Shown here in pieces: positions 305 through 63,670 of a stretch of 64,000 nt of DNA. Origin of the DNA: Octopus vulgaris (Eukaryota); contig OX597815.1 of assembly GCA_951406725.2 (NCBI GenBank), forward strand, positions 3,844,001 through 3,908,000. The letters run 5' to 3'. The translations under genes were made by a program, and so were the position numbers. The notes below the pieces were generated by a model that was given only the letters and a program-made list of their open reading frames with translations, did not search any database and had not been told where the DNA came from. Position 1 is the first letter of the stretch, and every line of letters starts with the position of its first letter.

Positions 305-312
<8 letters not shown>

Positions 313-723
313 TAAATGAAAGAATTGAGTCGAACGAAGATGTTAACAAAATTCCTTTATTCTCGACATATGTTTCGAAGACAACATGTTTTCATTCCAA
401 AGGAATAAAGGGTGCATTATGCAATCTTCTCATCAGAAGATTGCATAATGAGAAGATTGCATAATGCACCCTTTATTCCTTTGGAATCAAAACATGTTCG
501 AAACAATCGAAACATATGTCGAGAGTATAGGAATTTTGTTAACATCTTCGTTCGACTCCATTCTTTCATTTATTCATATACAACACACATTTTCTACACA
601 TGAACCCGGAGTTTCTACTCTTGGACAGGTCGCTTCAACCGTGTTTCTGACGTGAATTTCCTACCCAGGTTTCGGTTAAACGAATTTTCCATGCTGACGA
701 TAAACATAGGATAATTCATTCAC

Positions 724-725
<2 letters not shown>
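305..725. mobile_element. Rearranged copy of the (TA)n-embedded long-stem-II hammerhead element, with a fold-back palindrome (arms about 305-432 and 447-580)
   Basis: Homologous to 34280-34550, 43475-43822 and 63043-63395. The minus strand has CTGATGA...GAAACATATGTC, but the 5' strand of stem I is lost at the fold-back junction. (TA)n on both sides. Confidence 0.75.
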
Positions 726-781
<56 letters not shown>

Positions 782-4280: not shown

Positions 4281-5477
4281 TCTCAAAATTGGCAAATGTT
4301 GGAATCCGTGGAAAAGTTCTACACTGGATCAAGTATTTCCTGGCGAATAGAACACAACATGTTGTAGTTGATGGAGTCCACTCAAGCCCAGCAAAAGTCA
4401 CCAGCGGTGTCCCCCAGGGGACTGTCTTGGGTCCGCTACTCTTCATAATCTACATAAACGACCTTTCCAGTGTCGTACATTACTGCAAAGTGAAAATATT
4501 TGCTGATGACACCAAGCTCCAGCAAATCGTCAATGAAGAAGCAGACCGAACTCAACTCCAGTCTGATCTATATGCTGTGAGTCAATGGGCAGACAGAAAC
4601 AAAATGCAACTGAACGAGGGAAAATTTGAGCTGATACATTTTGGAAGAAACTCCTCACTAAAACAGCCATACTCTCTTCCTTCAGGGGAACCGCTCACAG
4701 CCTCTAACAACATCAGAGACCTAGGTGTAATTGTTGATGACGATATCAGTTGGAGTGCACACATCAACAAGAAGGTCGATATAGCTCGTAGGTTGAGTTC
4801 CTGGATCTTAAGAACTTTCCGGTCCAGAGAACAAGGTGTCATCATACCACTCTTCTCCTCCTTTGTACGGCCACACCTCGAATACTGCTGCCCACTGTGG
4901 TCTCCCCATACAAGACAAAACATCTCGAGGATTGAATCACCCCAGAGAGCACTCACTAAACGAATTGAAGGCATGGCTGCTCTCGATTATTGGGATCGCC
5001 TTAAAGCCTTGAAACTCTACTCTCTCCAGCGTCGCCGTGAGCGGTACATCATTTGTACGATGTGGAGAATATACCACCAACTTTGCCCAAACGACCTGAA
5101 CATAAGCTTCAAGGTTCATCCAAGACTGGAACCACGGGCCATACGTCCCCTGCCCAATTCAAGATCACAGCATACTTATACACTACAACATAATTTCTTT
5201 TCCTCAACAGGCCCTGCCCTATTTAACATTGTCCCGAAAGAGATCAAAGAGGAACAGGATCCCATCAACTTTAAACGGAGTTTGGATAGATTCCTTCAAA
5301 GAATACCAGATAAGCCACCCATAATTGGATACAACTCACCCAACAAAAACTCACTACTTGAATGGACCATAAGCAAAACTTGACTTAAACAGGATTCAAA
5401 TAATCCTATCAGGTGGTGCTATTAAGTTAGACATGGCCTGGACCAATCATTGGTCGAAACACATCTAAGTTTATCTA

Positions 5478-5483
<6 letters not shown>
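4280..5483 (+). mobile_element. 5'-truncated CR1/L2-group LINE (family A); uninterrupted RT C-terminal ORF at 4289-5383
   Basis: RT motifs GVPQGTVLGPLLF and IFADD, plus RDLGV, RPHLEY and SLQRRRERY. Short 3' UTR ends in TCTAAGTTTA repeats. (TA)n on both sides. Confidence 0.93.
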
Positions 5484-16285: not shown

Positions 16286-17945
16286 ATGTATATATACATA
16301 TATATGACGGGCTTCTTTCAGTTTCCGACTACCAAATCCACTCACAAGGCTATATATATATACACGCAAACACATATACGTAACGCGCATATACACATAC
16401 AAACACACATATACGAAATGCGTGCTAAGACACATTTAAGCATAAACATTGCCAGAAAAAAGATCTCTTACATATCCACTATACACACACACATACACGC
16501 ACATCTGCGTTCGTGCGTGTATATGTGCGTATGTCTACAATTATATTTAACACATTCGTGTACACCCGGCCGTAAGAAGACCGTTCACGTTCATAACCTT
16601 TTATAAATGCTGATATGCTCAAAGCTTGGTCAAACTGGAATGAATTACTTAGAAGAGCATAAAGCAATGTTGGATGAAATATAGGTGAGTTCAGTTATAA
16701 TTAACACGTACCTGCGCGCACACTCGGACGTAGGAAGACATGTCACTGTGGAGATAAGCTCGGGAAAAATGCTCCTCTAACATAAATATGTGTAAACACA
16801 CTTCATTGCACAATGATTGACGTCATTGGACTGTAGGACCCACGTGGTTTTACATCGCTACGCTTCTCAGCTATGGACATCGAATCGGTCGTTCATAGTC
16901 TACTTAGAAGTATCGTTCTTATAAATAAAAAAAGGGTAAAATGCACACAAATAATACAGGATTGGAAATGATCGTCAAATATAATTCCGAAAATGGCAGT
17001 TTTTTTTTCTCTTCAGGGGATCCCATTACTATTGTTGCAAAGGTTGCTGCGACATTGGTTCCCATTGCTGTGCCTAATATTTGAATATAATGCTGGTTAT
17101 CAATTTATATATTCTGACTGTATCAAGGAACTTTTGCAAAAGTTTATGTATGTATGTATGTATGTATGTATGTATGTATGTATGTATGTATGTATGTATG
17201 TATGTATGTATGTATGTATGTATGTATATAAATACACGTGTGTGTGTGTGTGTGTGCATGCATATTATCCATGTGACTGGAGATTCAAGTTTCGTTTGTT
17301 CAAAGAGCCGTGGGGCGAAACTGGAAGATCACATCAGTATAAACTTGAGAATAAATTTTATTCTACTCCCAGTATTGAGTACTCCCCAAACAAACAGAAA
17401 TTATTCCATTGTTATTCTTAAACTTACTTTAAAGTGACAGCATCGAGTAAAGCCACATTCACACATACGCACACACACACACACACACATACGCATACAC
17501 ACACACACACACACACATACATACACACTCATACATACACACTCATACATACACACGTATAATGTAATATTTATTCACTATTTGTGGATAAGTTGCAAAT
17601 AAATTTACATGCACTCGTTAAATAAACATACATTTAGCTTCGTTGTATAAACAAACACTCGGACTAAATCACGCGCAAGTTTCTTACTTGCTCTTTCTCA
17701 TTCTTTTTTTCCTTTAATCCACCTCTACTCTGTCTCTCTCTCTATTTCTCTCTTTCTCTCTCTCTCTCTTTCGTTCTCTCTCTCTCTCTCTTACTCTCTC
17801 TGCAGAATGAACTGGAAAACATGCATTAGTTTCGCCTGGTCATTTCCAGGTCATCGTTTATTTAAAACTGAATTTGATCATCATCAATACTAAAATAATA
17901 CACACACACACACATATGGATAAATACATAGATAGTTGTATTAAG

Positions 17946-24156: not shown

Positions 24157-25628
24157 GCCACCACCACCACCACCACCACCACCACCACCACCACCACCAC
24201 CACCACCACCACCACCACCACCACCACCACCACCACCACCACCACCACCACCACCACCACCACCACCACCACCACCACCACCACCACCACCACCACCACC
24301 ACCACCACCACCACCACCACCACCACCACCACCACCACCACCACCACCACCACCACCACCACCACCATCACCACCACCACCACCACCACCACCACCACCA
24401 CCACCACCACCACCACCACCACCACCACCACCACCGCCACCACCACCACCACCACCACCACCACCACCACCACCACCACCACCACCACCACCACCACCAC
24501 CATCACCACCACCACCACCATCACCACCACCACCACCACCACCACCACCACCACCACCACCATCACCACCACCACCACCACCACCACCACCATCACCACC
24601 ACCACCACCACCACCACCACCACCACCACCACCACCACCACCACCACCACCACCACCACCACCACCACCACCACCACCACCACCACCACCACCACCACCA
24701 CCACCACCACCACCACCACCACCACCACCACCACCACCACCATCACCACCACCACCACCACCACCACCACCACCACCACCACCACCACCACCACCACCAC
24801 CACCACCACCACCACCATCACCACCACCACCACCACCACCACCACCACCACCACCACCACCTCACCACCACCACCACCACCACCACCACCACCACCACCA
24901 CCACCATCACCACCACCACCACCACCACCACCACCACCACCACCACCACCACCACCACCACCACCACCACCACCACCACCACCACCGCCACCACCACCAC
25001 CACCGCCACCACCACCACCACCATCACCACCACCACCACCACCACCACCACCACCACCACCACCACCGCCACCACCACCACCACCACCACCATCACCACC
25101 ACCACCACCACCACCACCACCATCACCACCACCACCACCACCACCACCACCACCACCACCACCACCACCGCCACCACCACCACCACCACCATCACCACCA
25201 CCACCACCACCACCACCATCACCACCACCACCACCACCACCACCATCACCACCACCACCACCACCACCACCACCACCACCACCACCACCACCACCACCAC
25301 CACCACCACCACCACCACCACCACCACCACCACCATCACCACCACCACCACCACCACCACCACCATCACCATCACCACCACCACCACCACCACCACCACC
25401 ACCACCACCACCACCACCACCACCATCACCACCACCACCACCACCACCACCACCACCACCACCACCATCACCACCACCACCACCACCACCACCACCACCA
25501 CCACCACCACCACCACCACCACCACCATCACCACCACCACCACCGCCACCACCACCACCACCACCACCACCACCACCACCACCACCACCACCACCACCAC
25601 CACCACCACCACCACCACCACCACCACC
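24157..25628. repeat. About 1.47 kb (CCA)n/(TGG)n array
   Basis: Directly visible; scattered CAT and CGC variant units and one register shift near 24861. Confidence 0.98.
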
Positions 25629-33107: not shown

Positions 33108-33295
33108 CGAATGAATATAGCTTTATATGTGTGTACGTATATGTACGACGCATTTTATATGGGTTTTTGTAGTTACTATTATGATTGTCTTCGAATTTTG
33201 GTCGTCAATATAATTGTTGGCGGTGATGTTCATGTTGATATTGTTATTGGTGGTTTTGTTGTTATTATTGGGAGCAAGCTAAACAAAACCATTCG

Positions 33296-33419
33296 TCAGT
33301 GTGATCGTCATAGCAAAATATAATTTGCAGAACTATATACACAAAATGTCCGCATGAGATTGAACAGACATCCCGTGTATAGTTCTGCAAATTATATTTT
33401 GCTATGACGATCACACTGA
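33296..33419. repeat. Perfect 42-bp inverted repeat with a partly paired 40-nt spacer
   Basis: TCAGTGTGATCGTCATAGCAAAATATAATTTGCAGAACTATA at 33296-33337, with its reverse complement at 33378-33419. Confidence 0.92.
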
Positions 33420-33712
33420 GGAGTTGCGGAAATATACGTAAGTGATTACGTATGTGGTGGCAGCGAAACCTGGTTTGTGATTAATTTGTATATTTTGTAT
33501 CTCTTCATTTGTCTTCCTCGCTTACGTTCTGGCGTTTGCTAAGTTTTCTTGAGAACATTCCTTTCTTAGTGGTAATACCATAGTGAGTCGACTTCTAGCC
33601 TAATGGATGTCCACCGAGTGGTCATCCCACTTATACGTATGTATACATGTATATATGTATGTATCTATCTATCTATTCATATATATATTTATATACATAC
33701 ACAGGCATACAA

Positions 33713-34251: not shown

Positions 34252-34279
<28 letters not shown>

Positions 34280-34283
<4 letters not shown>

Positions 34284-34550
34284 TAGTTGAATGAATTATC
34301 TTATTAATGATAATTCGAATTAACCGATACCTGGGTAGCAAATTCACATCAGAGCTATGGGCTCCGTGTGAGCAATCATCTAAAAGTTTTTTGTGAATTT
34401 TGATGTTGACATAAGTTCCTTGCTTTTCCTGATGAGAAAGCGGCATAATGTACTCCTTATTCCTTCGCAATTAGGAATATGCAGCCTTCGAAACATATGT
34501 CGAAAATAAAGGAATTTTGTTAATTCGTCGTTCAGCTCCATTCTTTCATA
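34280..34550 (+). mobile_element. Short non-coding (TA)n-embedded element carrying a hammerhead ribozyme (solo PLE terminal repeat or retrozyme-like)
   Basis: (TA)n-GAGTAGTTGAATGAATTATC...TAACCGATACCTGGGTAGCAAATT...HHR...CTCCATTCTTTCAT-(TA)n; four related copies in the window. Confidence 0.75.
34416..34514 (+). ncRNA. Type I hammerhead ribozyme with extended stem II
   Basis: Stem I TTCCTTGCTTTTC/GAAAATAAAGGAA; core CTGATGA at 34429-34435; stem II GAAAGCGGCATA/TATGCAGCCTTC; GAAA; palindromic stem III CATATG; GUC cleavage triplet ending at 34501. Confidence 0.85.
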
Positions 34551-34558
34551 TATTTATA

Positions 34559-34622
<64 letters not shown>

Positions 34623-35308: not shown

Positions 35309-35384
35309 TAAACTTAGATAAACTTAGATATGTTTCGACCAAAGATTGGTCCAGGCCATGTCTAACTTAATAGCACCACCTGAT
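35309..35384 (-). mobile_element. Extreme 3'-end-only copy of LINE family A
   Basis: Reverse complement of ATCAGGTGGTGCTATTAAGTTAGACATGGCCTGGACCAATC.TTGGTCGAAACA.ATCTAAGTTTATCTAAGTT, with (TA)n on both sides. Confidence 0.88.
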
Positions 35385-38580: not shown

Positions 38581-38778
38581 TTAATCCAAACAAGAAAGCA
38601 CGAAAAAAACACAACAACGCGAGGACGTGGAACAAATATAGTATTATTGGACGCTCAGGAAAGAAGGAGGGTTTAACGTTTCGAGCGGAGCTCTTCGTCG
38701 GAAACATAGGAGAAGGAAAGATCCAGAGAAGGGAAGACAGGGGAAAAAAAATCGCCAACGGTACACACGAGGTCACAT
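38578..38778 (-). mobile_element. Putative PLE terminal-repeat remnant with a minimal hammerhead (38671-38705)
   Basis: Near copy at 52348-52548. Minus strand reads GTTT-CCGACGA-A-GAGC-TCC-GCTC-GAAA-CG-TT-AAAC. Abuts (TA)n. Confidence 0.65.
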
Positions 38779-42879: not shown

Positions 42880-43474
42880 TTATAGTAGCCTTAAATAAAT
42901 CTAATCTTTGTACCCCTATTAAATCGTACTCAGATTATATAAGGTAATACCGGTATCTCGACAACTTAAAATAGTTCAATTTAATTAAATCAGTGCATAG
43001 TTGATATGTCCTTTAACCTCAGTTGCTCCCTAATTAAATACCAGTTAAATCTAATTTATCAATCTCCATAGAAACCAAATAATAAGCTGATATTTCAGAT
43101 AAGTAATAAATAAATAAATATTAAACTATTTCTTTGCAATTGTCTTTTCCTCCCTCTATTGTGGTAAAAATTTGGTAAATACTCAAAATATCCAAAGTTT
43201 TATCCTTTTGTTAAAATTTCATTCTTAATAATCTTCTTGATTACCCTAAATTTTAACTTTATACAATAAGACAATATTGTTTGAAATGGTCTTAAGAAGT
43301 TACTTGATTTATGTCTTTCTTAAATGGCCCCACCCTCCTGATCTTCTATATTTATTATTTTCTCGGAGGAATAATTCTGTAATTATTGCTAATATGGACT
43401 TAAGATTGTAAATGCAATAACCAAAATACCCCATATATACATACATACTAACATATATATATATATATATATAT

Positions 43475-43820
43475 AAATGAAAGAATGGAGTCGAACGACG
43501 ATTTAACAAAATTCCTTTCTTCTCGACATATGTTTCGAAGACTGCATATTCTTAATTCCGAGGGAATAAGGGGTGCATTATGCCGCCTTCTCATCAGGAA
43601 AGACAAGGAACTTATGTCAGCATCATGACGAACAAAAAGTATTAGATGGCTTGGCTGCATTTATCTATAGTAAAAAAACACACAAATTTCCACACGAAAG
43701 CACGTGATTTCTGCCCTTGGCATGTAGCTTCAACCGTGCTTTCTGACGTAAATTTGCTACCCGGGTATCGGTTAACCGAATTATCCATACTAGGACAATT
43801 CAATCAACTACTTAAACATT

Positions 43821-43822
<2 letters not shown>
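43475..43822 (-). mobile_element. (TA)n-embedded hammerhead element, same family as 34280-34550
   Basis: Both terminal blocks are present in colinear order, with (TA)n on both sides. Confidence 0.75.
43512..43610 (-). ncRNA. Type I hammerhead ribozyme with extended stem II
   Basis: Minus strand reads TTCCTTGTCTTTC-CTGATGA-GAAGGCGGCATA...TATGCAGTCTTC-GAAA-CATATG-TC-GAGAAGAAAGGAA. Confidence 0.82.
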
Positions 43823-43887
<65 letters not shown>

Positions 43888-45756: not shown

Positions 45757-46143
45757 ATCCCGGTAATTATTGGGACTCTGGGATATGTAGCACATTGCCT
45801 AAATACCAATATTGAGAAATTAGGCTTCTCAAAACCAGAAAGGAGAAAACTAATTCGAAGACTACAGATCCAATCTATCACTGGAATTGTAAAAATCTGT
45901 AAAACTTTCCAGAAGTTTATCTTTTAAATATATATGTCCATATCTACATATGTAGCTATATGCATGAGAAGGCACACATAAAATAAAACATACAAATCTG
46001 CATTATACATACATACATACATACATAGAAACAAAAATAGCCTGTTGTTGATGTTGAAAGTTCAATGAAGGAGCGTTGGATCTAGGTTAGAAACCGGTTC
46101 CTTCTCTATTGGCAAGAAATTTTGAAATGAAACTGAACAATGA
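45757..46143 (+). mobile_element. 3'-end copy of an R4-like RLE retrotransposon in (ACAT)n
   Basis: PVIIGTLGYVAHCLNTNIEKLGFSKPERRKLIRRLQIQSI plus 3' UTR, matching about 47827-48218; (ACAT)n on both sides. Confidence 0.82.
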
Positions 46144-46512
46144 CATACATACATACATACACATACCTACATATATGCATACACGCACACATACATACAT
46201 ACATACATACATACACAGACACTCACATATATACATACATACACACACTTACATACATACATAAATACATACAGGCATACACACACATAAATATATACAC
46301 AGACACACACACTTCCATACAGACATATACACACATACATACATGCATACATGCATACATGCAATCATACATATGTACATGTATACACGCACACACACAC
46401 ACACATACATACATGCATACATACAAACATACATACATACATACATACATACATACATACATACATACATACATACATACATACATACATACATACATAC
46501 ATACATACATAC

Positions 46513-48218
46513 TGTTATTCATGTTAGGGAAGTCTGAAGGATATCTCACTGGTTCTCAAGGAAACAGAAATACCAAAATTATACACTGTTTCTTTGCGGA
46601 TGACTTGGAACTATATGCCAAGAATATGGAAGAGATGAAAACGAGCCTTGATCCGGTTACATTTTCAAAGGATATTGGGTTGGAGTTTGGCCAGGATAAA
46701 CTTTGCTATAAGGTTCTGAAAAGAGGGAAAACTGTAAACCAGAGCAGCAACATCTCCATCAATGACTTCACTGTTTGCCCTGTATCTGGTGAGGCGTAGA
46801 TGAAAACCTATCTTACAATGATATCTCTGTAACAAGACACGTGTCACTAAAGCATATTACAGACGGATAAGGAAAATATGGACCTCGGAACTGTTTGCAT
46901 TCGATAAATCGGTGTCTCGCAATGCAGTACCGGTACTCACACCAACATTTGGGCTACGTGAGTGGATGCTTGATGAGATCCGAGCCATTGATGTGAAAAC
47001 CTGGAAGATACTGACGATCGCACATAATTTTCACATCAACAACGGCGTTGACCGCCTCTACTTCAAACGAAAACAAGGCGGCAGAGGATTGACATCGACC
47101 CAGACCGCCTTTGAATGTCATATTATATCCCTTCGGCAACATCTTTTAACCATCAAGTATCGAAGTGCACCCCCGACCAAGTTCGCATACATGAGGCTGA
47201 TGGCATCATAATACTAGAAAAGCAGCTTTTGAATCAACATTCCGTGTCTGATAACGCTGAATATATATACAAAGAAGTGGCACGATTCATCAGATGAAAT
47301 GATGAGTCTATATGAGCAGAAGACGATGCATGGATATGTTAGTAGAAGGCTAACACTTTCAAGGATGTGCGTTTGCAATCCAGGAATAAGAAATATCAAC
47401 CAACCACTTGATGCACAGAGAAAGGGACAGAGACGCAGGAAAAGCACCAAACTGTGAGAACAATGCAGATTTTCTCAAGTTAACACCGAACGTATCACCC
47501 AAATAATAAGCGGTTCTCCAAAAATGTCTTCAAGGTATTATCTACCGATGGGACATGATGTTGTAGCTAGGACACTGTATAACGAGGTTCGTCGAAAGGG
47601 TAACTCCGAGGACAAAGAAATAAGAACCCACAATATAGTAGAAGCCATAATAAAAAGGAGTACTGATGGAATTTGGGATAGAGAAGAGAAACTGTGTACA
47701 GTTGTGGAAATTAGCTGCCCAGCGGATGTTAACATAAAACTGAAGATCAGGGGAAAAGGGAACACCTATGCTGAACGATTGAGAAATCTGTAGTTACTCT
47801 ATCCAGATTACAAGTTCAGGTTTATACCTGTAATTATTGGGACCCTGGGGTATGTAGCACACTGTCTAAATACCAATCTTGAGAAATTAGGCTTCTCAAA
47901 ACCAGAAAGGAGAAAGCTAATTCGAAGACTGCAAATCCAATCCATCATTGGAACTGTATAAATCTGTAAAACTTTCCAGAAGTTTATCATTTAAATATAT
48001 ACGTATGAGCATGTCTAGATATGCAAATATATGCATGAGAATGCATACATAAGACAAAACATACAAATCTGCACATACGCTGACTCCAAATACTGCACAT
48101 ATACACACCTATATAAACAGATACCCTATTGATGTTCAAATTCCATTGAAGGAGTTTTGGATCTGGGTCGGAAACCGGTTCTTTCTCTAATGGCAAGAAA
48201 TCTTCATATAACTGAAAA
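46513..48218 (+). mobile_element. Degenerate 5'-truncated R4-clade non-LTR retrotransposon (RT plus RLE)
   Basis: HCFFADDLELYA, FSKDIGLEFGQDK, VDRLYFKRKQGGRGL, HDVVARTLY, VVEISCP and PVIIGTLG motifs; many stops and frameshifts. The 5' end abuts (ACAT)n. Confidence 0.85.
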
Positions 48219-48408: not shown

Positions 48409-48465
<57 letters not shown>

Positions 48466-48467
<2 letters not shown>

Positions 48468-48847
48468 CGGAGATATATTTGCATAGCAAGTGAATTTGAT
48501 CTGAGATCGTGTACTGGAACGAAAACAATTGCAGCGTGGAAGGTGTTTATAAGCCTTTTAAGAAACACACAAAATCCGTTCGATTCACTTCAACATTTGA
48601 ATTTAATTTGTGTCAAAAATATTTTCGTCGCTTTGAAACCGCGACCCGTTCACTGACAAAATTTCATGCTGCATCTTTTTTCTTTCTTTCTTTTGTTTTT
48701 CTGTCAGTACGAAATTTTGTCAGTGAACGGGTCGCGGTTTCAAAACGACGAAAATATTTTTGACACAAATTAAATTTAAATGTTGAAGAGAAGCTAACAG
48801 TTTTTGCGTGTTTTTAAATGGCTTATAAACACCTTCCATGCTGCAAT

Positions 48848-48850
<3 letters not shown>
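48466..48850. mobile_element. (TA)n-embedded fold-back element (arms 48525-48665 and 48711-48850) with a hammerhead-like fold
   Basis: Diverged inverted arms of about 140 bp; a related single-arm copy lies at about 3605-3755. Confidence 0.7.
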
Positions 48851-48884
<34 letters not shown>

Positions 48885-48934: not shown

Positions 48935-49213
48935 CAAATGAAGTATATATATATATATATATATATACTTCATTTGTATGTATATATATATATATATATA
49001 TACATACAAATGAAGTATATATATATATATATATATAGATAAGAAAGTTTGTTTGGTAAAGCACGTGGGTGAATATATAAGAAAATAGTAAAGTGTGAAA
49101 AAACGACAGAAGGCTTAAATGTTAAAAGATATATATATTTGTGTCAAAATGTCTGGAGAATATTGGAAAAATTTTTTTCCTTTCCTTAAAATGACATAAT
49201 TTTTAAATTTTTA

Positions 49214-49253
49214 AAGAAATTACCGGTTTCGCGTGTAGCTTTTCAAATTTCTT
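49214..49253 (-). ncRNA. Minimal type I hammerhead (U3-A8 variant) in the PLE 3' repeat
   Basis: Exact reverse complement of 51285-51324. Confidence 0.7.
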
Positions 49254-49389
49254 GTGACGTTATGTTTATATTGCATGGATTTATCGTTGTTTTTATTTCC
49301 AGGAGATTTCTAAATAAGGGGAGGTAGTGAGTGATTTTTTCCGGTGTAGGGGAGATAATCGCTTAAAAATTTTTTTTCCCATTTCCTTG

Positions 49390-50780
49390 TTAATTTCTCT
49401 GTGTCAGTATGTTCGGATGGTTGAGTCTGGGTTTGTACTTTTCAATGAAGAATGTTTCCTTGTTCAGTCTCATTTGTGTTGATGATCCGAAAGCACATTG
49501 GTAAAATGGGAAGATTAAAAATTGTGGCAGTAGTTGCTTTGCGCATTTCTCAATGTGCTCACTAAAAGGTATCATTCTATATTCTGGGAATGCAATCTGT
49601 TGTCGATGCAGTGTGCATCTGCGCCTGAGTGATAGTCCCGTGGAACCCACGTAGTCTTGGTGGCAGCCCGAGCATTTAATAACATAAATTATGTTTTCAG
49701 AGGCACAAGTAAAGTTAGATTTGATCTTAAATTTCTGTCCTTCTTTAAAGAAGAATTCTGATCCTTCCAATAGGTTAGGACATGTTGCACAGTTCGATCT
49801 ACCACATTTTTTTACTTTTGCATCCGTAATTTTAGAAGACAATTTTGCCTTTGTGAGAATCTTTTTAAGTGATTTAGGCTGTTTGTAGCTTTTAATGATT
49901 TGGTGTATGTTTAGAATTTCCCTTAATTTTGGGTTTTTATGAAGTATTGGTAAATTCTGGGTGATGATGGTGAAGGCTTCTTTGTTTCTGGGGTTGTATG
50001 TAGATATGTAAGGTAGTATTTTCGGGGAAGGTGTGTTGTTGTGTTGAACTTTCCTTAAAGTTTCTATGTTGATTTCTGTTGCACGTCTGATCCCATCCTC
50101 TATGAGTTGAGCTGGGTAATGTCTGTCAATTAGGGTGTTTTTGAGTTCTTGCAGTCTAAAGTTCCTGGTATTTTGTTCTGACACTATTGTGCATATCCTT
50201 CTTGCAAGGTTGAAGGGTATGTTTGTTTTAGTGTGTCTTGGGTGGCATGAATTAAAAAGAAGGTATTGTTTGGCGTCTGTGGCTTTGTAAAAAATGTCTG
50301 TTTCTATTTTAAGGTTAATTTTTTTAATTAGTATATCCAAGAACGGGAGCTCCTTTTGGTTGTATTCCATTGTGAACTGTATATTTGGGTTTATGCTGTT
50401 CAATAGGTTTTTAAATTTTAGGAGTTTATCTATGTTTTCATTCCAGAGAATGAAACAATCGTCTAGGAATCGTTTCCAATTCTCTTTATGTATTGAGAGA
50501 GGGAGTTTCCAAAGATTGATAGAGATTCCTGGTAAATGATTATTTCCATGTATCCCATTGTTAAGTTCGCAATGACTGGTGCTGCCCTTGTACCCATAGC
50601 AATTCCGGATTTTTGACGGTAAAATGTATTGTCAAACATGAAGTGGTTATTGTGTAGGATGAATTCAATTGATTTAGTAATGAATTCCTTACTGATCCTT
50701 TTTGGTATTTCTTCCGGAAATTGGTCTAACCAGAATTGTATTGCCTCCAGTCCATAATTATGAGGTATACTGGTATACAA
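49390..50780 (-). pseudogene. PLE RT / GIY-YIG endonuclease ORF, with one frameshift near 50470-50500 and the N-terminus missing
   Basis: ORFs 50463-50780 and 49390-50403 carry consecutive PLE RT motifs in different frames. Confidence 0.9.
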
Positions 50781-51284
50781 GTTCTGTCCTTAAAGAAGGA
50801 CAGAAATTTAAGATCAAATCTAACTTTACTTGTGCCTCTGAAAACATAATTTATGTTATTAAATGCTCGGGCTGCCACCAAGACTACGTGGGTTCCACGG
50901 GACTATCACTCAGGCGCAGATGCACACTGCATCGACAACAGATTGCATTCCCAGAATATAGAATGATACCTTTTAGTGAGCACATTGAGAAATGCGCAAA
51001 GCAACTACTGCCACAATTTTTAATCTTCCCATTTTACCAATGTGCTTTCGGATCATCAACACAAATGAGACTGAACAAGGAAACATTCTTCATTGAAAAG
51101 TACAAACCCAGACTCAACCATCCGAACATACTGACACAGAGAAATTAACAAGGAAATGGGAAAAAAATTTTTTAAGCGATTATCTCCCCTACACCGGAAA
51201 AAATCACTCACTACCTCCCCTTATTTAGAAATCTCCTGGAAATAAAAACAACGATAAATCCATGCAATATAAACATAACGTCAC

Positions 51285-51324
51285 AAGAAATTTGAAAAGC
51301 TACACGCGAAACCGGTAATTTCTT
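51285..51324 (+). ncRNA. Minimal type I hammerhead (U3-A8 variant) in the inverted PLE arm
   Basis: AAGAAAT-TTGAAAA-GC-TACAC-GC-GAAA-CCGG-TA-ATTTCTT: perfect 7-bp stem I, 2-bp stem II, palindromic ACCGGT stem III, GUA site. Confidence 0.7.
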
Positions 51325-51457
51325 TAAAAATTTAAAAATTATGTCATTTTAAGGAAAGGAAAAAAAATTTTTCCAATATTCTCCAGACATTTTGACACAA
51401 ATATATATATCTTTTAACATTTAAGCCTTCTGTCGTTTTTTCACACTTTACTATTTT

Positions 51458-51498
<41 letters not shown>

Positions 51499-52347: not shown

Positions 52348-52352
<5 letters not shown>

Positions 52353-52933
52353 ATCCATACATGAAAACACAAACAGAAAACACAGCAACGCGAGGACGTG
52401 GAACAAGTATAGTGTTATTGGACGCTCAGGAAAGGAAAGAAAGAAGGAGGATTTAACGTTTCGAGCGGAGCTTTTCGTCAGAAAAATAGGAAAAGGAAAG
52501 ATCCAAGGAAGGGAAGACAGAGGAAAAAAATCGCCAACGCGGTCACATTTTGAATGGGGGAGGAATAGGGGATGGCGTGGATCTTCAAGAGGAAGCCACG
52601 GCGTGAGACGTGATGGCGGGAGAAACGGCTAAGAAAGGAGTTATGGCTAGAGTGGCGAGCTTTTTTAAAAAGCGAGAGAGTTTTTTTGCGGGTTGCAAGC
52701 ATTGGGGGGAAGGCGCAAGAAAACGGCAAATAAGGGATTGGAGGTGTTGGAGGAAGGAGTGCAGGTCAAGTATGGTGAGAGGGTGTGAATGTCTGTGTAG
52801 GTGTAAACGGTGGCGGCACAAGTAGAAAACTGGAAGTAGAAGAAGAAAGGTAAAAAGGGGACGAGAAAAAGGGGAAGAGTCACGGACAAATTTTTGATGA
52901 TTTACAATCACGATTACAGTGGAGTACTCCGGA

Positions 52934-53707: not shown

Positions 53708-53890
53708 CATATATACGACAGGCTTCTTTCAGTTTCCGTCTACCAAATTCGCTCACAAGTCTTTGGTCAGCCCGGGGCTATAGTAGAAGACACTTACCCA
53801 AGGTGCCACGCAGTGGGACTGAACCTGGAACCATGTGGTTGGGAATCAAACTACTTACAACACAGCCACTCCTGCGCCTATAAATATATA

Positions 53891-54777
53891 TAACTTAGAA
53901 TAACTTAGAATGGTTTTGGCCAGTATTGGCCCAGGCCATGTCTAACTTAATAGCACCACCTGGTGAAGTCTTTCAGTTCAGGATTTGGGGACCAAGGCCC
54001 ATTCGAGCAGAGAGTTATTGTTTGCGGAGACATATCCGGGTGTGGGTGGTTTGTCCGGTACTGTTTGAAGGAATTTGTCCAAAGACTTCTTGAATTTTGT
54101 GTGGTCAGTTTCTTTTTTGACGTGTCCTGGTGTAATGTTGAAGAGAGCAGGTCCAAATGAGGTGAAATAGTTGTGCCGTATTGTCGTTATGTGATGCGAT
54201 TTAGATTTTTGTTGTGGACGGATGGCACGTGGTCCAAGCCTTGGATGCATTTTGAAGGTGATGCCAACATCATTCGGACAGTGCTGATGGAATATTTTCC
54301 ACATCATACAGATAATGTAGCGTTCACGGCGTCGTTGGAGTGAATACAATTTCAGCTTCTCTAGTCTACCCCAGTAGTCAAGGTCTGACATGCCATCTAT
54401 CTTTTTTGTGATTGACCTTTGGGGAGCTTCAATTCTCATAATATTTTGTTTTGTGTAGGGAGACCACAGTGGACAGCAGTATTCAAGGTGGGGTCGGGCA
54501 AAAGTGGAGAAGAGAAGGATAATAGCGTGGGAATCTCTCGACTGGAAGGTTCTGAGAATCCAGGAACACATTCTGCGGGCCATTTCAACTTTGCTGCTTA
54601 TATGTGTAGCCCAGCTTATGTTGTTGTCCACTGTTACTCCCAGGTCTTTGATGTTGTTGGATGCCATGAGAATTTCTCCAGAAGGAAGGGAGTATGGGAG
54701 TTTCAGAGCGTCCTCCCTTCCAAAGTGGATCAGTTCAAATTTGTCTTCATTTAGCAACATGTTATTCTTTTCCGCCC
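53891..54777 (-). mobile_element. 5'-truncated CR1/L2-group LINE (family A); open frame 53978-54760
   Basis: KDLGV, RPHLEY and SLQRRRERY motifs; 3' tail of TTCTAAGTTA repeats; TA-rich flanks. Confidence 0.93.
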
Positions 54778-54828
54778 TTTTATATATATATAAATATTTA
54801 TATATATTTCATATATATATATATATAT

Positions 54829-56254
54829 ATCATCAAGGTATTTGAGAGGGTGGTGAGATCTCGAATAACCCAATCTCTGGAAAGCAACAGACGGCTGATC
54901 TCCAACCAACATGGGTTCCGTAATGGAAGGGACTGCCTAACGCAGCTCCTGCATCACTTTGAGGACATTTTGAGAGCTTTGGGAGAGGGCTCCAACACCG
55001 ATGTCATCTACCTTGATTTCAGTAAGGCCTTCGACAGGGTCGATCACAAGATCCTATTGAAAAAACTATCCAACATTGGTGTCTCTGGAAAGTTACTGAA
55101 ATGGATTAAGTGTTTCCTGACAGACAGATCTCAACATGTTGTAGTTGAAGGGGTAAAATCAAGCCCAGCCAAAGTCAGTAGTGGCGTTCCGCAAGGCACT
55201 GTGCTGGGCCCACTTCTTTTCATCATTTACATTAATGACATTAATGACATCATCAAGCACAGCAACATAAAAATCTTTGCAGATGACTCCAAGCTACAGA
55301 AGGTCATAAATGAGGCGAGTGACCGGACATGCCTTCAGTCAGATCTACTGGCTGTTATCCAATGGGCAGAAAAAAACAATATGCTGCTGAACGAGGATAA
55401 ATTTGAGCTAATCCACTTTGGAAAAGAGGATGCCCTGAAACTCCCATACTCCCTTCCTTCAGGTGAAACTCTCGCGGCGTCCAACAACATCAGAGACTTG
55501 GGAGTAATTGTGGACAACAACGTAAGCTGGGCCACTCATATAAACACCAAAGTTGACATGGCCCGCAGAATGTGTTCCTGGATTCTCAGAACTTTCCAGT
55601 CGAGAGATATCCACACCATTATCCTTCTCTTCTCCACTTTTGCCCGACCCCACCTTGAATACTGTTGTCCACTGTGGTCTCCCCACACAATACAAGGTAT
55701 CATAAAAGTTGAAGCACCTCAAAGGGCAATCACAAAAAAGATAGATGGCATGACAGGCCTCGACTATTGGGGTCGGCTAGAAAAGCTAAAACTCTATTCT
55801 CTCCAACGTCGTCGTGAGCGCTACATCATCTGCATGATGTGGAAAATATTCCATCAGCATTGCCCAAATGATGTTGGCATCACCTTTAAGGTACATCCAA
55901 GGCTTGGGCCCCGTGCCATCCGCCCAAAACAAAAATCGCACTCTCATCTCATAACAACAATACGGCACAATTATTTCACCTCAATTGGCCCCGCTCTCTT
56001 TAACATTACACCAAAACACATTAAAACAGAAACTGACCCTATAGGGTTCAAGAAGTCTTTGGACAGATTCCTTCAAGAAATCCCGGATAAACCCCCTACA
56101 CCCGGATATGTCTCTGTAAACAATAACTCTCTACTTGAGTGGGCCATAGTGCCCAAATTCTGACTTGAAAGACTTCACCAGGTGGTGCTATTAAGTTAGA
56201 CATGGCCTGGGCCAATAATGGCCGAAACCTATCAAAGTATCAAAGTATCAAAGT
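54829..56254 (+). mobile_element. 5'-truncated CR1/L2-group LINE (family A); uninterrupted RT frame to 56163
   Basis: QHGFR, YLDFSKAFDRVDH, GVPQGTVLGPLLF and IFADD motifs; 3' tail (ATCAAAGT)3; (TA)n on both sides. Confidence 0.95.
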
Positions 56255-56790
56255 ATATATATATATATATATATATACATATATATATACATATATATAT
56301 ACATATATATATACATATATATATACATATATATACATATATATATATATATACATATATATATACATATATATATACATATATATATACATATATATAT
56401 ACATATATATATACATATATATATATACATATATATACATATATATATATATATATACATATACTATCTTTTACTCTTTTACTTGTTTCAGTCATTTGAC
56501 TGCGACCATGCTGGAGCACCGCCTTTAGTCGAGCAAATCGACCCCAGGACTTATTCTTTGTAAGCCCAGTACTTATTCTATCGGTCTCTTTTGCCGAACC
56601 GCTAAGTGACGGGGACGTAAACACACCAGCATCGGTTGTCAAGCAATGCTAGGGGGACAAATACAGACACTTGCCCAAGATGCCATGCAGTGGGACTGAA
56701 CCCGGAACCATGTGGTTGGTTAACAAGCTACTTACCCCACAGCCACTCCTGCGCCTATATACATATACATATACATATACTTTTTTATAT

Positions 56791-60697: not shown

Positions 60698-60732
<35 letters not shown>

Positions 60733-60868
60733 ATAATAAAATAGGGTAATAATAAATTATTATTACCAGTGGCCTAGCACAAAAAACGAATTAGTCATTA
60801 GACTATATATCATTCATATAGAAATACAATAAGAAGCCTCTTATTGTATTTCTATATGTACATGTATG

Positions 60869-62031: not shown

Positions 62032-62195
62032 AATGAGATAGGGGTTGAAAATTCAACCCACCATGGGATAATATATATCCAATATACTGCTAGATAGGTA
62101 CCCAACAAGACTAATACATAGATGTTAAAAATTGCCAAACAATCAGTTCATCTATTGTATTATATGGGTAAAGGTAATAATATTACCGTAAATTA

Positions 62196-62406
62196 ATACT
62201 ACAAAATTAGAGAATGGAGAAACATACTTAAATCAATAAAACATCAACTATCAGATGATACCCAATCAATACTTTAATACACCAATACATATCAGTAAAG
62301 GCGCCTTTACTGATATGTAATGGTGTAATAAAGTAATGTTTGGGTATCATCAGATAGTTGATGTTTTATTGATTTAAGTATGTTTCTCCATTCTCTAATT
62401 TTGTAG

Positions 62407-62641: not shown

Positions 62642-62676
<35 letters not shown>

Positions 62677-62750
62677 AATATTAGGGAATAAATCCAAACT
62701 TACAGGGAAAAATCAGATTTAGAATTGAATCCAATTTTATAGTAAAATAT

Positions 62751-62973
62751 TATATTATATTAAATTAGAGACAAAACCACTATTAGGCAAATCATACAAT
62801 GAAAAACTGAAGCCAATACATAAGATTATTTAATTTATATTATTTAAATATATAAATTATATTTTTTTAATAATTTTGTTATATATTTAAATAATATAAA
62901 TTAAATAATCTTATGTATTGGCTTAAGTTTTTCATTGTATGATTTGCCTAATAGTGGTTTTGTCTCTAATTTA

Positions 62974-62983
<10 letters not shown>
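62751..62983. repeat. Inverted repeat (arms of about 105 bp) of the element end also seen at 3772, 58650 and 61863
   Basis: TAAATTAGAGACAAAACCACTATTAGGCAAATCATACAATG and its reverse complement. Confidence 0.9.
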
Positions 62984-63045
<62 letters not shown>

Positions 63046-63203
63046 AGTAGTTGAATGAATTATCTTATTAAGGATAATTCGAATTAACCGATACCTGGGT
63101 AGCAAATTCACATCAGAAAAAACATGGTTGAAGTTACGTGCCTATGGCATAGTTTACATGCTTTCGTCTGGAAATTTGTATGTTTATTTTAAAAATATAA
63201 ATA

Positions 63204-63250
63204 GGCCTGGGCCAATACTGGCCAAAACCTTTCTAAGTTATTCTAAGTTA
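63204..63250 (+). mobile_element. LINE family A 3' tail only
   Basis: GGCCTGGGCCAATACTGGCCAAAACC.TTCTAAGTTATTCTAAGTTA, matching the tail of 53891-54777. Confidence 0.8.
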
Positions 63251-63284
63251 TGAAAGAATGGAGCTGAACGACGAATTAACAAAA

Positions 63285-63384
63285 TTCCTTTATTTTCGAC
63301 ATATGTTTCGAAGCGGTGCATATTCCTAATTGCGAAGGAATAAGGAGTACATTATGCCGCTTTCTCATCAGGAAAAGCAAGGAA
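63285..63384 (-). ncRNA. Type I hammerhead ribozyme with extended stem II
   Basis: Nearly identical to 34416-34514 in reverse complement, with CTGATGA...GAAACATATGTC intact. Confidence 0.82.
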
Positions 63385-63670
63385 CTTATGTCAACATATA
63401 CATATATGTATATATGTATATATACATATATGTATATATGTATATATGTATATATATGCAAACACATACATATATGTATATATATATATAAAATTTATAT
63501 AAATAAGGATAAGATCGTTATTTAAAATACTGATCATATCAAGTGGCTAGCATGGGATTAAAATTTCAAAGGTAATAATTATTATTAAAATTATAATTAA
63601 GGGTATCTAAAAGATACCATCATGCTATCTTTAGCATGATGGTATCTTTTAGATACCCTTTATTATAATA

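What the first reader, a model, noticed from the sequence alone, without database searches (positions are those of the whole stretch)
34280..34550. Non-coding element of about 270-350 bp built around an intact long-stem-II hammerhead (retrozyme-like)
Four copies in 64 kb; three keep a perfect CUGAUGA/GAAA/GUC core despite divergence elsewhere. Stem II is unusually long, with a one-sided bulge and an inner TATTCCT/AGGAATA hairpin. Stem III is the palindrome ACATATGT. No ORF is present, and the size is in the range of animal non-LTR retrozyme monomers, which yield circular RNAs. No tandem copies are seen here, so a solo PLE terminal repeat is equally possible.
Basis: partly seen in the sequence, partly recalled or inferred. 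Interest (0 to 1): 0.75.

Follow-up and report, generated by a model that had tools for sequence, protein, structure and literature searches.

The report
Long-armed hammerhead in Penelope-like retrotransposon end
A predicted self-cleaving hammerhead ribozyme with an unusually long second helix lies in a dispersed repeat that is likely the broken, partly inverted tail end of a Penelope-like retrotransposon rather than a self-contained circular-RNA element.

Summary
The hammerhead is there: CUGAUGA at 34429, a 54-nt helix II, palindromic helix III, predicted cut after C34501. The family has 4 loci (5 ribozyme arms) in the window; 4 of 5 arms keep the core.

The '270-350 bp element' is not a unit. 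Two other window loci and public contigs show the family's natural order. At 34.3 kb the first 73 bp are an inverted piece of the family's far 3' end, joined to a 5'-truncated hammerhead segment. In contigs the hammerhead segment runs upstream into other sequence (1.8 kb in one).

Truncation, inverted arms, one-sided extensions and (TA)n targets match Penelope-like elements (PLEs). An ORF-bearing PLE of another family at 49-51 kb has the same layout. No ORF could be tied to this family, so PLE membership is inferred (about 0.8). No tandem copy was seen, but tandem units longer than the laid stretch and circles were not testable.

Unusual points: Rfam misses this hammerhead, and the two 3' ends lie about 150 nt apart (30-40 bp in the papers read). 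Likely a new variant of a known kind. Interest 0.32.

The parts
34252..34280 (.). (TA)n run, left target flank
34281..34353 (-). Inverted arm: last 73 nt of the family's 3' end, its terminus facing the (TA)n run
   Evidence: 72 of 74 identical to the end of the collinear 63-kb copy; contigs of 4 of 4 runs continue it past 34353 into the segment seen in the other copies (table 7)
34354..34404 (+). 5'-truncated start of the sense arm; in other copies it is preceded by different, longer upstream sequence
   Evidence: loose ends before 34354-34355 in X1, X9, X13; contigs reaching 155 nt (X9 record 26) and 1841 nt (X13 record 10) further upstream
34405..34428 (+). Helix I, 5' strand (pairs with 34502-34524; 21 bp with a 2x2 loop)
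34429..34435 (+). Hammerhead core box CUGAUGA
   Evidence: no listed variant in contigs
34436..34489 (+). Long helix II (54 nt): 12-position base with two mismatches in this copy, 12-nt bulge, inner hairpin
34490..34501 (+). GAAA box, palindromic helix III (34493-34500), predicted cleavage 3' of C34501
   Evidence: self-duplex of the palindrome -7.0 kcal/mol
34502..34549 (+). Helix I 3' strand and conserved downstream segment
34550..34565 (+). First 16 nt of the natural downstream continuation; inner 3' end (inferred internal priming site)
   Evidence: 34551-34565 identical to 63203-63189; 13 contigs of X1 continue past 34565 into the same segment
34566..34619 (.). (TA)n run, right target flank
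63043..63398 (-). Collinear 5'-truncated copy (ribozyme, then 210 nt to the 3' end), interrupted at 63204-63248 by a 45-nt piece of another repeat's 3' end
43474..43824 (-). Older copy (132 of 147 identical over the ribozyme segment) with an inversion whose two arms share 7 nt at the breakpoint
306..735 (+). Collinear 5'-truncated copy 441-735 (core broken) plus inverted ribozyme arm 436-306 (core intact), joined at a perfect hairpin

Best explanation
The predicted hammerhead likely lies in the 3' terminal repeat (pLTR) of a (TA)n-targeting Penelope-like retrotransposon family, and the 34.3-kb locus is a truncated copy whose first 73 bp are an inverted piece of the family's 3' end, likely made by priming at two sites. 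SHOWN: the order upstream - ribozyme - about 210 nt - (TA)n; two classes of 3' end, 49-61 nt and 208-210 nt past the predicted cut; variable inversion junctions; (TA)n flanks. INFERRED: a PLE reverse transcriptase/GIY-YIG protein nicks both strands of a (TA)n run. One nick primes at the terminal site and the other at an AU-rich site just past the ribozyme. Both cDNAs stop early and are joined head to head through a few shared bases. In the parent RNA the ribozyme would cut after C34501, likely only as a dimer through the palindromic helix III or with protein help, because a competing hairpin hides the core in the monomer. This promoter-less, mismatched copy is likely inert.
For: Order: 63398-63043 (minus) and 441-735 (plus) are collinear; the 45 extra nt at 63 kb match other repeats (97.9% to 53890-53937). 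The last 15 nt of the 34k arm equal the start of the continuation, and 13 contigs run on past 34565. Variable junctions: 5 forward joints listed, 4 of them from 34341-34354 into different places of the ribozyme segment, plus loose ends at 34486 and 34507. Upstream extension at 34354-34357 in contigs of 4 of 4 runs, up to 1841 nt (tables 7-8). 7 of 8 outer ends lie within 10 nt of (TA)4 or longer, against 11% of the window. Same layout in an ORF-bearing PLE at 49.0-51.5 kb: RT and GIY-YIG relatives, inverted arms 99% alike, one arm 40 nt longer, minimal U3-A8 hammerhead-like motif. Literature: 5' truncation, inverted copy, one-sided tail and (TA)n bias (Craig 2021); hammerheads in pLTRs with palindromic helix III (Cervera 2014); two internal initiation sites downstream of the hammerhead and protein-assisted cleavage (Frangieh 2024). 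Core conservation: 0 of 19 core positions against 31 of 126 others carry a listed variant, Fisher p 0.007, with 16 rows of that table not shown.
Against: No RT or endonuclease ORF was tied to this family: two frames of the 43-kb copy found no relative; 120 PLE proteins hit no ribozyme locus by tblastn; the 1841-nt extension could not be read and may be host flank. The gap between the two 3' ends (about 150 nt) is far longer than the 30-40 bp tail in the papers read. Covariation among 4 arms does not beat the shuffles (419 of 500 reach 89.5% paired). Tandem junctions at the true 3' end were invisible because the tool skipped 34264-34289. Arkhipova 2013 argues that head-to-head palindromes arise on an antisense template, so the template strand is not settled.
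Confidence: 0.72

Rival explanations
1. A non-autonomous, ORF-less PLE derivative: a longer non-coding RNA that keeps the pLTR and is copied in trans by a PLE protein. Same insertion mechanism, no ORF of its own.
For: No ORF link found. 2092 contigs of one DNA run laid on 305 bp, so the family has many variants. pLTRs suffice for mobilisation in trans (Arkhipova 2013).
Against: One contig extends 1841 nt upstream, the scale of an ORF. ORF-less short copies are what 5' truncation of an autonomous PLE gives (Cervera 2014).
Confidence: 0.13
2. A non-LTR retrozyme: tandem masters elsewhere give circular RNAs, and the window holds dispersed, truncated monomers inserted by PLE machinery.
For: Helix III of 2 bp plus tetraloop as in invertebrate retrozymes; mussel retrozyme hammerheads also lack the usual loop contacts (Cervera 2020). 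Dispersed monomers are common and retrozymes derive from pLTRs (Li 2026).
Against: 0 of 4 loci tandem; 0 of 5 listed joints go back; no fixed monomer length; upstream extension far beyond the 150-450 bp unit size quoted by Cervera 2020.
Confidence: 0.11
3. A fold-back or MITE-like DNA element with inverted ends that happens to carry a hammerhead-like fold.
For: Inverted pieces at 3 of 4 loci.
Against: No locus has two complete matching ends; junctions vary; copies are truncated from one side; core bases are the least variable.
Confidence: 0.04

Closest known systems
pLTR hammerheads of endonuclease-bearing Penelope-like elements (Cervera and De la Pena 2014, PMC4209133; Craig 2021, PMC8557442)
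   Same: Type I topology, small palindromic helix III, G10.1-C11.1 pair, mostly single motifs in truncated copies, opposite-strand pairs 100-700 bp apart, (TA)n targets, inverted truncated arm, extension on one arm only.
   Different: Helix II region 53-55 nt against 6-8 bp stems; helix I 21 bp against 4-6; one-sided extension about 150 nt against 30-40 bp; ORF not seen.
Poseidon element PAc of Anolis (Frangieh 2024, PMC11167929)
   Same: Two 3' ends downstream of the hammerhead; AT-rich target; core needs help to fold.
   Different: In PAc the ATG inside the core box starts the ORF; here that frame stops after 25 codons in the 34k copy and the 43k frame found no relative. Helix II is far longer.
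Deviant hammerheads of PLE-X1_sMoe and PLE-X1_sTam (Craig 2021, File S2)
   Same: About 50 nt between the two core boxes, so a long helix II has precedent in PLEs.
   Different: Spike moss, endonuclease-less, 28S rDNA-targeting; other helix III.
Animal non-LTR retrozymes (Cervera and de la Pena 2020, PMC7229834; Li 2026, 10.64898/2026.07.22.740005)
   Same: Type I hammerhead with weak helix III, low GC, no long ORF in the copy, PLE connection.
   Different: No tandem units, no fixed monomer, long upstream extension, circles untested.
Published octopus Naiad and Hydra PLE consensus sequences (Craig 2021 supplement)
   Same: (TA)n preference; Naiad_Ovul and Naiad_Esco are flagged 'HHR_half_core' (boxes 35-50 nt apart).
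   Different: Four hallmark words of this family had 0 hits in that file (line breaks can hide a hit), and the cephalopod Naiad 3' ends read by eye do not match. Hydra-1_Obim has a 7-bp helix II.

Membership tests
Type I hammerhead ribozyme | CUGANGA, GAAA and UH boxes at a three-helix junction | tested here: met
   4 of 5 arms
Type I hammerhead ribozyme | Helices supported by compensatory change | tested here: inconclusive
   89.5% of cells paired, 2 pairs changed on both sides, not above shuffles with 4 rows; contig variants fall on both sides of 3 proximal pairs and repair 2 mismatches, but linkage is not shown
Type I hammerhead ribozyme | Match to an Rfam hammerhead model | tested here: not met
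   0 at gathering score in the window; none among 14 matches up to E 10; likely due to the long helix II
Type I hammerhead ribozyme | Self-cleavage 3' of C17 | not testable with these tools
   needs an in vitro assay or raw RNA reads; all listed runs were contigs
Penelope-like element (EN+) | Hammerhead in the terminal repeat near the 3' end | tested here: met
   208-210 nt from the terminal end; that this end is the 3' end is inferred from truncation polarity
Penelope-like element (EN+) | 5' truncation, inverted head-to-head arm, extension on one arm only | tested here: met
   3 of 4 loci inverted, 1 plain truncated; extension about 150 nt, longer than published
Penelope-like element (EN+) | Insertion into (TA)n or AT-rich DNA | tested here: met
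   7 of 8 ends against 11% background
Penelope-like element (EN+) | Linked RT plus GIY-YIG ORF | tested here: inconclusive
   none found; an unread 1841-nt upstream extension exists; no genome held
Non-LTR retrozyme | Two or more consecutive units, each with a hammerhead | tested here: not met
   0 of 4 loci; 0 of 5 listed joints go back. Rest of the genome not searchable
Non-LTR retrozyme | Defined monomer of 150-450 bp | tested here: not met
   boundaries composite and variable; family continues upstream
Non-LTR retrozyme | Circular RNA | not testable with these tools
   contigs cannot show it
Naiad PLE | N-terminal GIY-YIG ORF upstream of the 3' end | not testable with these tools
   upstream sequence unread; no match to published cephalopod Naiads

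The most novel reading that the evidence does not exclude
Cephalopod (TA)n-targeting PLEs carry a class of working hammerheads with 40-55 nt helix II that Rfam and short-spacer descriptors cannot see (two families in this one window), and the parent of this family is a Naiad, a clade reported to lack canonical hammerheads. The published 'half-core' cases would then be complete ribozymes, and the PLE tail would be a variable 40-150 nt interval between two priming sites.
Probability: 0.12. Interest if true: 0.58.

Novelty: new variant of a known kind. Interest (0 to 1): 0.32.

Why it matters
If right, it corrects a tempting misreading: solo hammerhead 'monomers' between (TA)n runs can be inversion products of PLE 3' ends, not retrozymes. 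It adds an abundant hammerhead form that Rfam misses, so hammerhead counts in PLE-rich genomes may be too low. It also gives a natural test of the two-site initiation model of PLE insertion, with sites about 150 nt apart and junctions readable in many copies. It would not be a new kind of system.

Tried and rejected
No whole genome is held, so no genome-wide search for arrays or ORF-linked copies.
Rfam: 0 at gathering; only microsatellite-driven noise up to E 10.
Collection scans: viral 0 and 0; metagenomes 0, then 3; prokaryote genomes 2. All 5 loci are unrelated: no helix I, no PLE protein hit, no model hit. Phage records: no match.
Sequencing runs: no RNA holder listed on record; three runs guessed to be RNA were laid and are used only for what their contigs join, not as evidence of expression. 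Depth was not used to rank parts.
Protein searches with two open frames of the 43-kb copy: none; three hits were unrelated repeat proteins. Coding in the terminal segment rejected: the frame is not kept in the 63-kb copy.
First idea that the 63-kb copy was the inverted one and the ribozyme antisense: dropped once the 45-nt spacer proved to be a foreign insert.
A second ribozyme or conserved fold in the terminal segment: no descriptor hit, covariation term unfavourable in both orientations.
One search had one row on the wrong strand and was not used. The sigma-70 scan is irrelevant to an animal genome and at chance level.
Earlier scan notes: nothing.
Literature: 7 searches showed no paper on this family. 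The O. vulgaris repeat library (PMC13282606) is on Zenodo and could not be seen; the Li 2026 supplements were closed; Repbase and Dfam were not available. The family may be in those under a Penelope label.

Full report
OBSERVATION. The window is AT-rich, microsatellite-rich animal DNA. A PLE protein in it has close relatives annotated from Argonauta hians (53-54%) and bivalves, so a cephalopod source is likely; the SINE beside the finding looks like an octopus SINE (recalled, no call). At 34429-34501 the plus strand holds a type I hammerhead: CUGAUGA, a 54-nt helix II, GAAA, helix III of 2 bp with a palindromic tetraloop, C17 at 34501, and a 21-bp helix I. Four loci carry the family, with five ribozyme arms; 4 of 5 keep the core. 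The helix III 17-mer has 5 matches against 0.43 expected. Rfam finds nothing.

HOW GOOD IS THE RIBOZYME. In contigs of 4 runs (4 of the 24 listed, 20 of which hold the stretch), 0 of 19 core positions and 31 of 126 other positions carry a listed variant (16 rows were not shown). Listed variants fall on both sides of three proximal pairs and repair the two helix II mismatches of this copy, but contigs do not show that they travel together. With only 4 aligned arms, pairing (89.5%) beats slid controls (42-48%) but not shuffles (419 of 500), so covariation is not established. In 4 of 4 arms with an intact core the 5' strand of helix I can pair with the 5' strand of helix II and hide the core. The active monomer fold is 3.2-6.7 kcal/mol above the minimum in the three full arms, worst in the 34-kb copy. 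With helix III formed between two molecules the gap is 1.2-2.6 kcal/mol for the 63-kb and 43-kb copies and 9.0 for the 34-kb copy. This fits dimer- or protein-assisted cleavage as described for PLE hammerheads (Cervera 2014; Frangieh 2024). Cleavage is untested.

THE ELEMENT IS NOT A UNIT. The 63-kb locus, read on the minus strand, runs from the ribozyme segment through about 210 nt to a (TA)n run; its 45 extra nt are a piece of another repeat's 3' end, 97.9% alike to 53890-53937. The arm at 441-735 has the same order. The last 15 nt of the 34-kb locus equal the start of that continuation, and 13 contigs of run X1 carry on past 34565 into it. So 34281-34353 is the far 3' end of the family, inverted. 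The 43-kb locus is a like inversion whose arms share 7 nt at the breakpoint. The 0.3-kb locus has an inverted ribozyme arm joined at a perfect hairpin. In contigs, joints between the terminal segment and the ribozyme segment fall at different places (5 forward joints, none going back), and sequence upstream of 34354-34357 is something else, in 4 of 4 runs, reaching 1841 nt in one contig. The 3' ends fall in two classes: 49, 55 and 61 nt, and 208 and 210 nt (after removing the insert) past the predicted cut. 7 of 8 outer ends touch (TA)n, against 11% of the window.

WHAT THIS MATCHES. 5' truncation, an inverted truncated arm, an extension on one arm only and (TA)n bias are the described marks of PLE insertions (Craig 2021; Arkhipova 2013). 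Frangieh 2024 traced the extension to two initiation sites downstream of the hammerhead. The window holds an internal control of another family: an RT/GIY-YIG PLE at 49.0-51.5 kb with inverted arms, one 40 nt longer, and a minimal U3-A8 hammerhead-like motif. Five more palindromic inserts between microsatellites have one-sided extensions of 60-120 nt, so long extensions are common here, though those five are not shown to be PLEs. The mechanism I commit to is two-primer target-primed reverse transcription on a nicked (TA)n run, like L1 twin priming (concept recalled; only the reference line was seen).

WHAT IS MISSING. No ORF was linked. The long upstream contig could not be read and may be host flank. 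Tandem junctions at the true 3' end were hidden because the tool skipped 34264-34289, and contigs cannot show circles. Published cephalopod Naiads and Hydra-1_Obim do not match. Odds: end of an autonomous PLE 0.72, ORF-less PLE derivative 0.13, retrozyme with tandem masters elsewhere 0.11, DNA fold-back 0.04. Li 2026 argues that retrozymes derive from pLTRs, so the first three lie on one continuum.

NOVELTY. Hammerheads in PLE ends are known, also in an octopus Hydra element, and about 50 nt between the core boxes has precedent in spike moss PLE-X1. Not found in the papers searched: this family, its 21-bp helix I with bulged 54-nt helix II, and a one-sided extension near 150 nt. A second long-helix-II hammerhead (42 nt) of another family lies at 33416. 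Craig 2021 allowed a spacer of 7-17 nt for core detection and flagged eight Naiads with boxes 35-50 nt apart, which is the opening for the bolder reading. Verdict: new variant of a known kind, interest 0.32.

WHAT I SAW OF EACH PAPER. Li 2026 (10.64898/2026.07.22.740005): parts 1-3 of 5, supplements closed. Cervera 2014 (PMC4209133) and Frangieh 2024 (PMC11167929): parts 1-2 of 4 each. Craig 2021 (bioRxiv 10.1101/2021.04.23.441226 and PMC8557442): passages; supplement parts 1, 2, 24, 25 of 59 and word searches. Cervera 2020 (PMC7229834): passages and section 14. Arkhipova 2013 (PMC3846280), PMC8967140, PMC13725137: passages. PMC3649969: one reference line.

Noticed in passing
window 33395-33490 (+), inverted repeat 33293-33422: Second hammerhead of an unrelated family with a 42-nt helix II (core CUGAGGA at 33416, 7-bp helix I); single copy in the window, preceded by an inverted duplicate arm.
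   Followed up: partly
window 49040-51460: PLE with RT and GIY-YIG ORF (49390-50631, minus) and a 99% identical inverted truncated arm; one arm 40 nt longer; minimal U3-A8 hammerhead-like motif near 51290-51320; relatives in Argonauta and bivalves.
   Followed up: partly
window 52350-52540 and 38581-38760 (minus): Two copies (85% alike) of a short repeat with a minimal hammerhead-like motif; core box intact at 52481, mutated at 38.7 kb.
   Followed up: partly
window 62079-62406, 62676-62979, 48465-48851, 63491-63670, 60730-60858: Five palindromic inserts between microsatellites, each with an extension of 60-120 nt on one side only; likely head-to-head 3' ends of other PLE-like families; no convincing hammerhead.
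   Followed up: partly
window 63204-63248: 45-nt piece of the 3' end of a LINE-like repeat inserted into the 63-kb copy; related ends at 53890-53937, 56204-56256, 5435-5481, 35311-35357.
   Followed up: yes
window 53903-56238: Two LINE-like RT fragments, 86% alike, in inverted arrangement; a related RT ORF at 4244-5383 hits Pfam RVT_1.
   Followed up: no
window 16994-17104 (minus): Short decayed PLE RT fragment, about 65% identical to relatives of the 49-kb protein.
   Followed up: no
window 24158-25628: (CCA)n array of about 490 units, 96% matches; unusually long, could be inflated by assembly.
   Followed up: no
window 46137-47211 (+): Broken ORF pieces that look like a non-LTR retrotransposon of the restriction-endonuclease type (recalled motif); no Pfam hit.
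   Followed up: no
L003:1960-2021, L004:3488-3549, L005:1068-1129: Three metagenome contigs share a near-identical 62-nt stretch with both hammerhead boxes but no helix I or II pairing; unrelated to this family, probably chance.
   Followed up: partly
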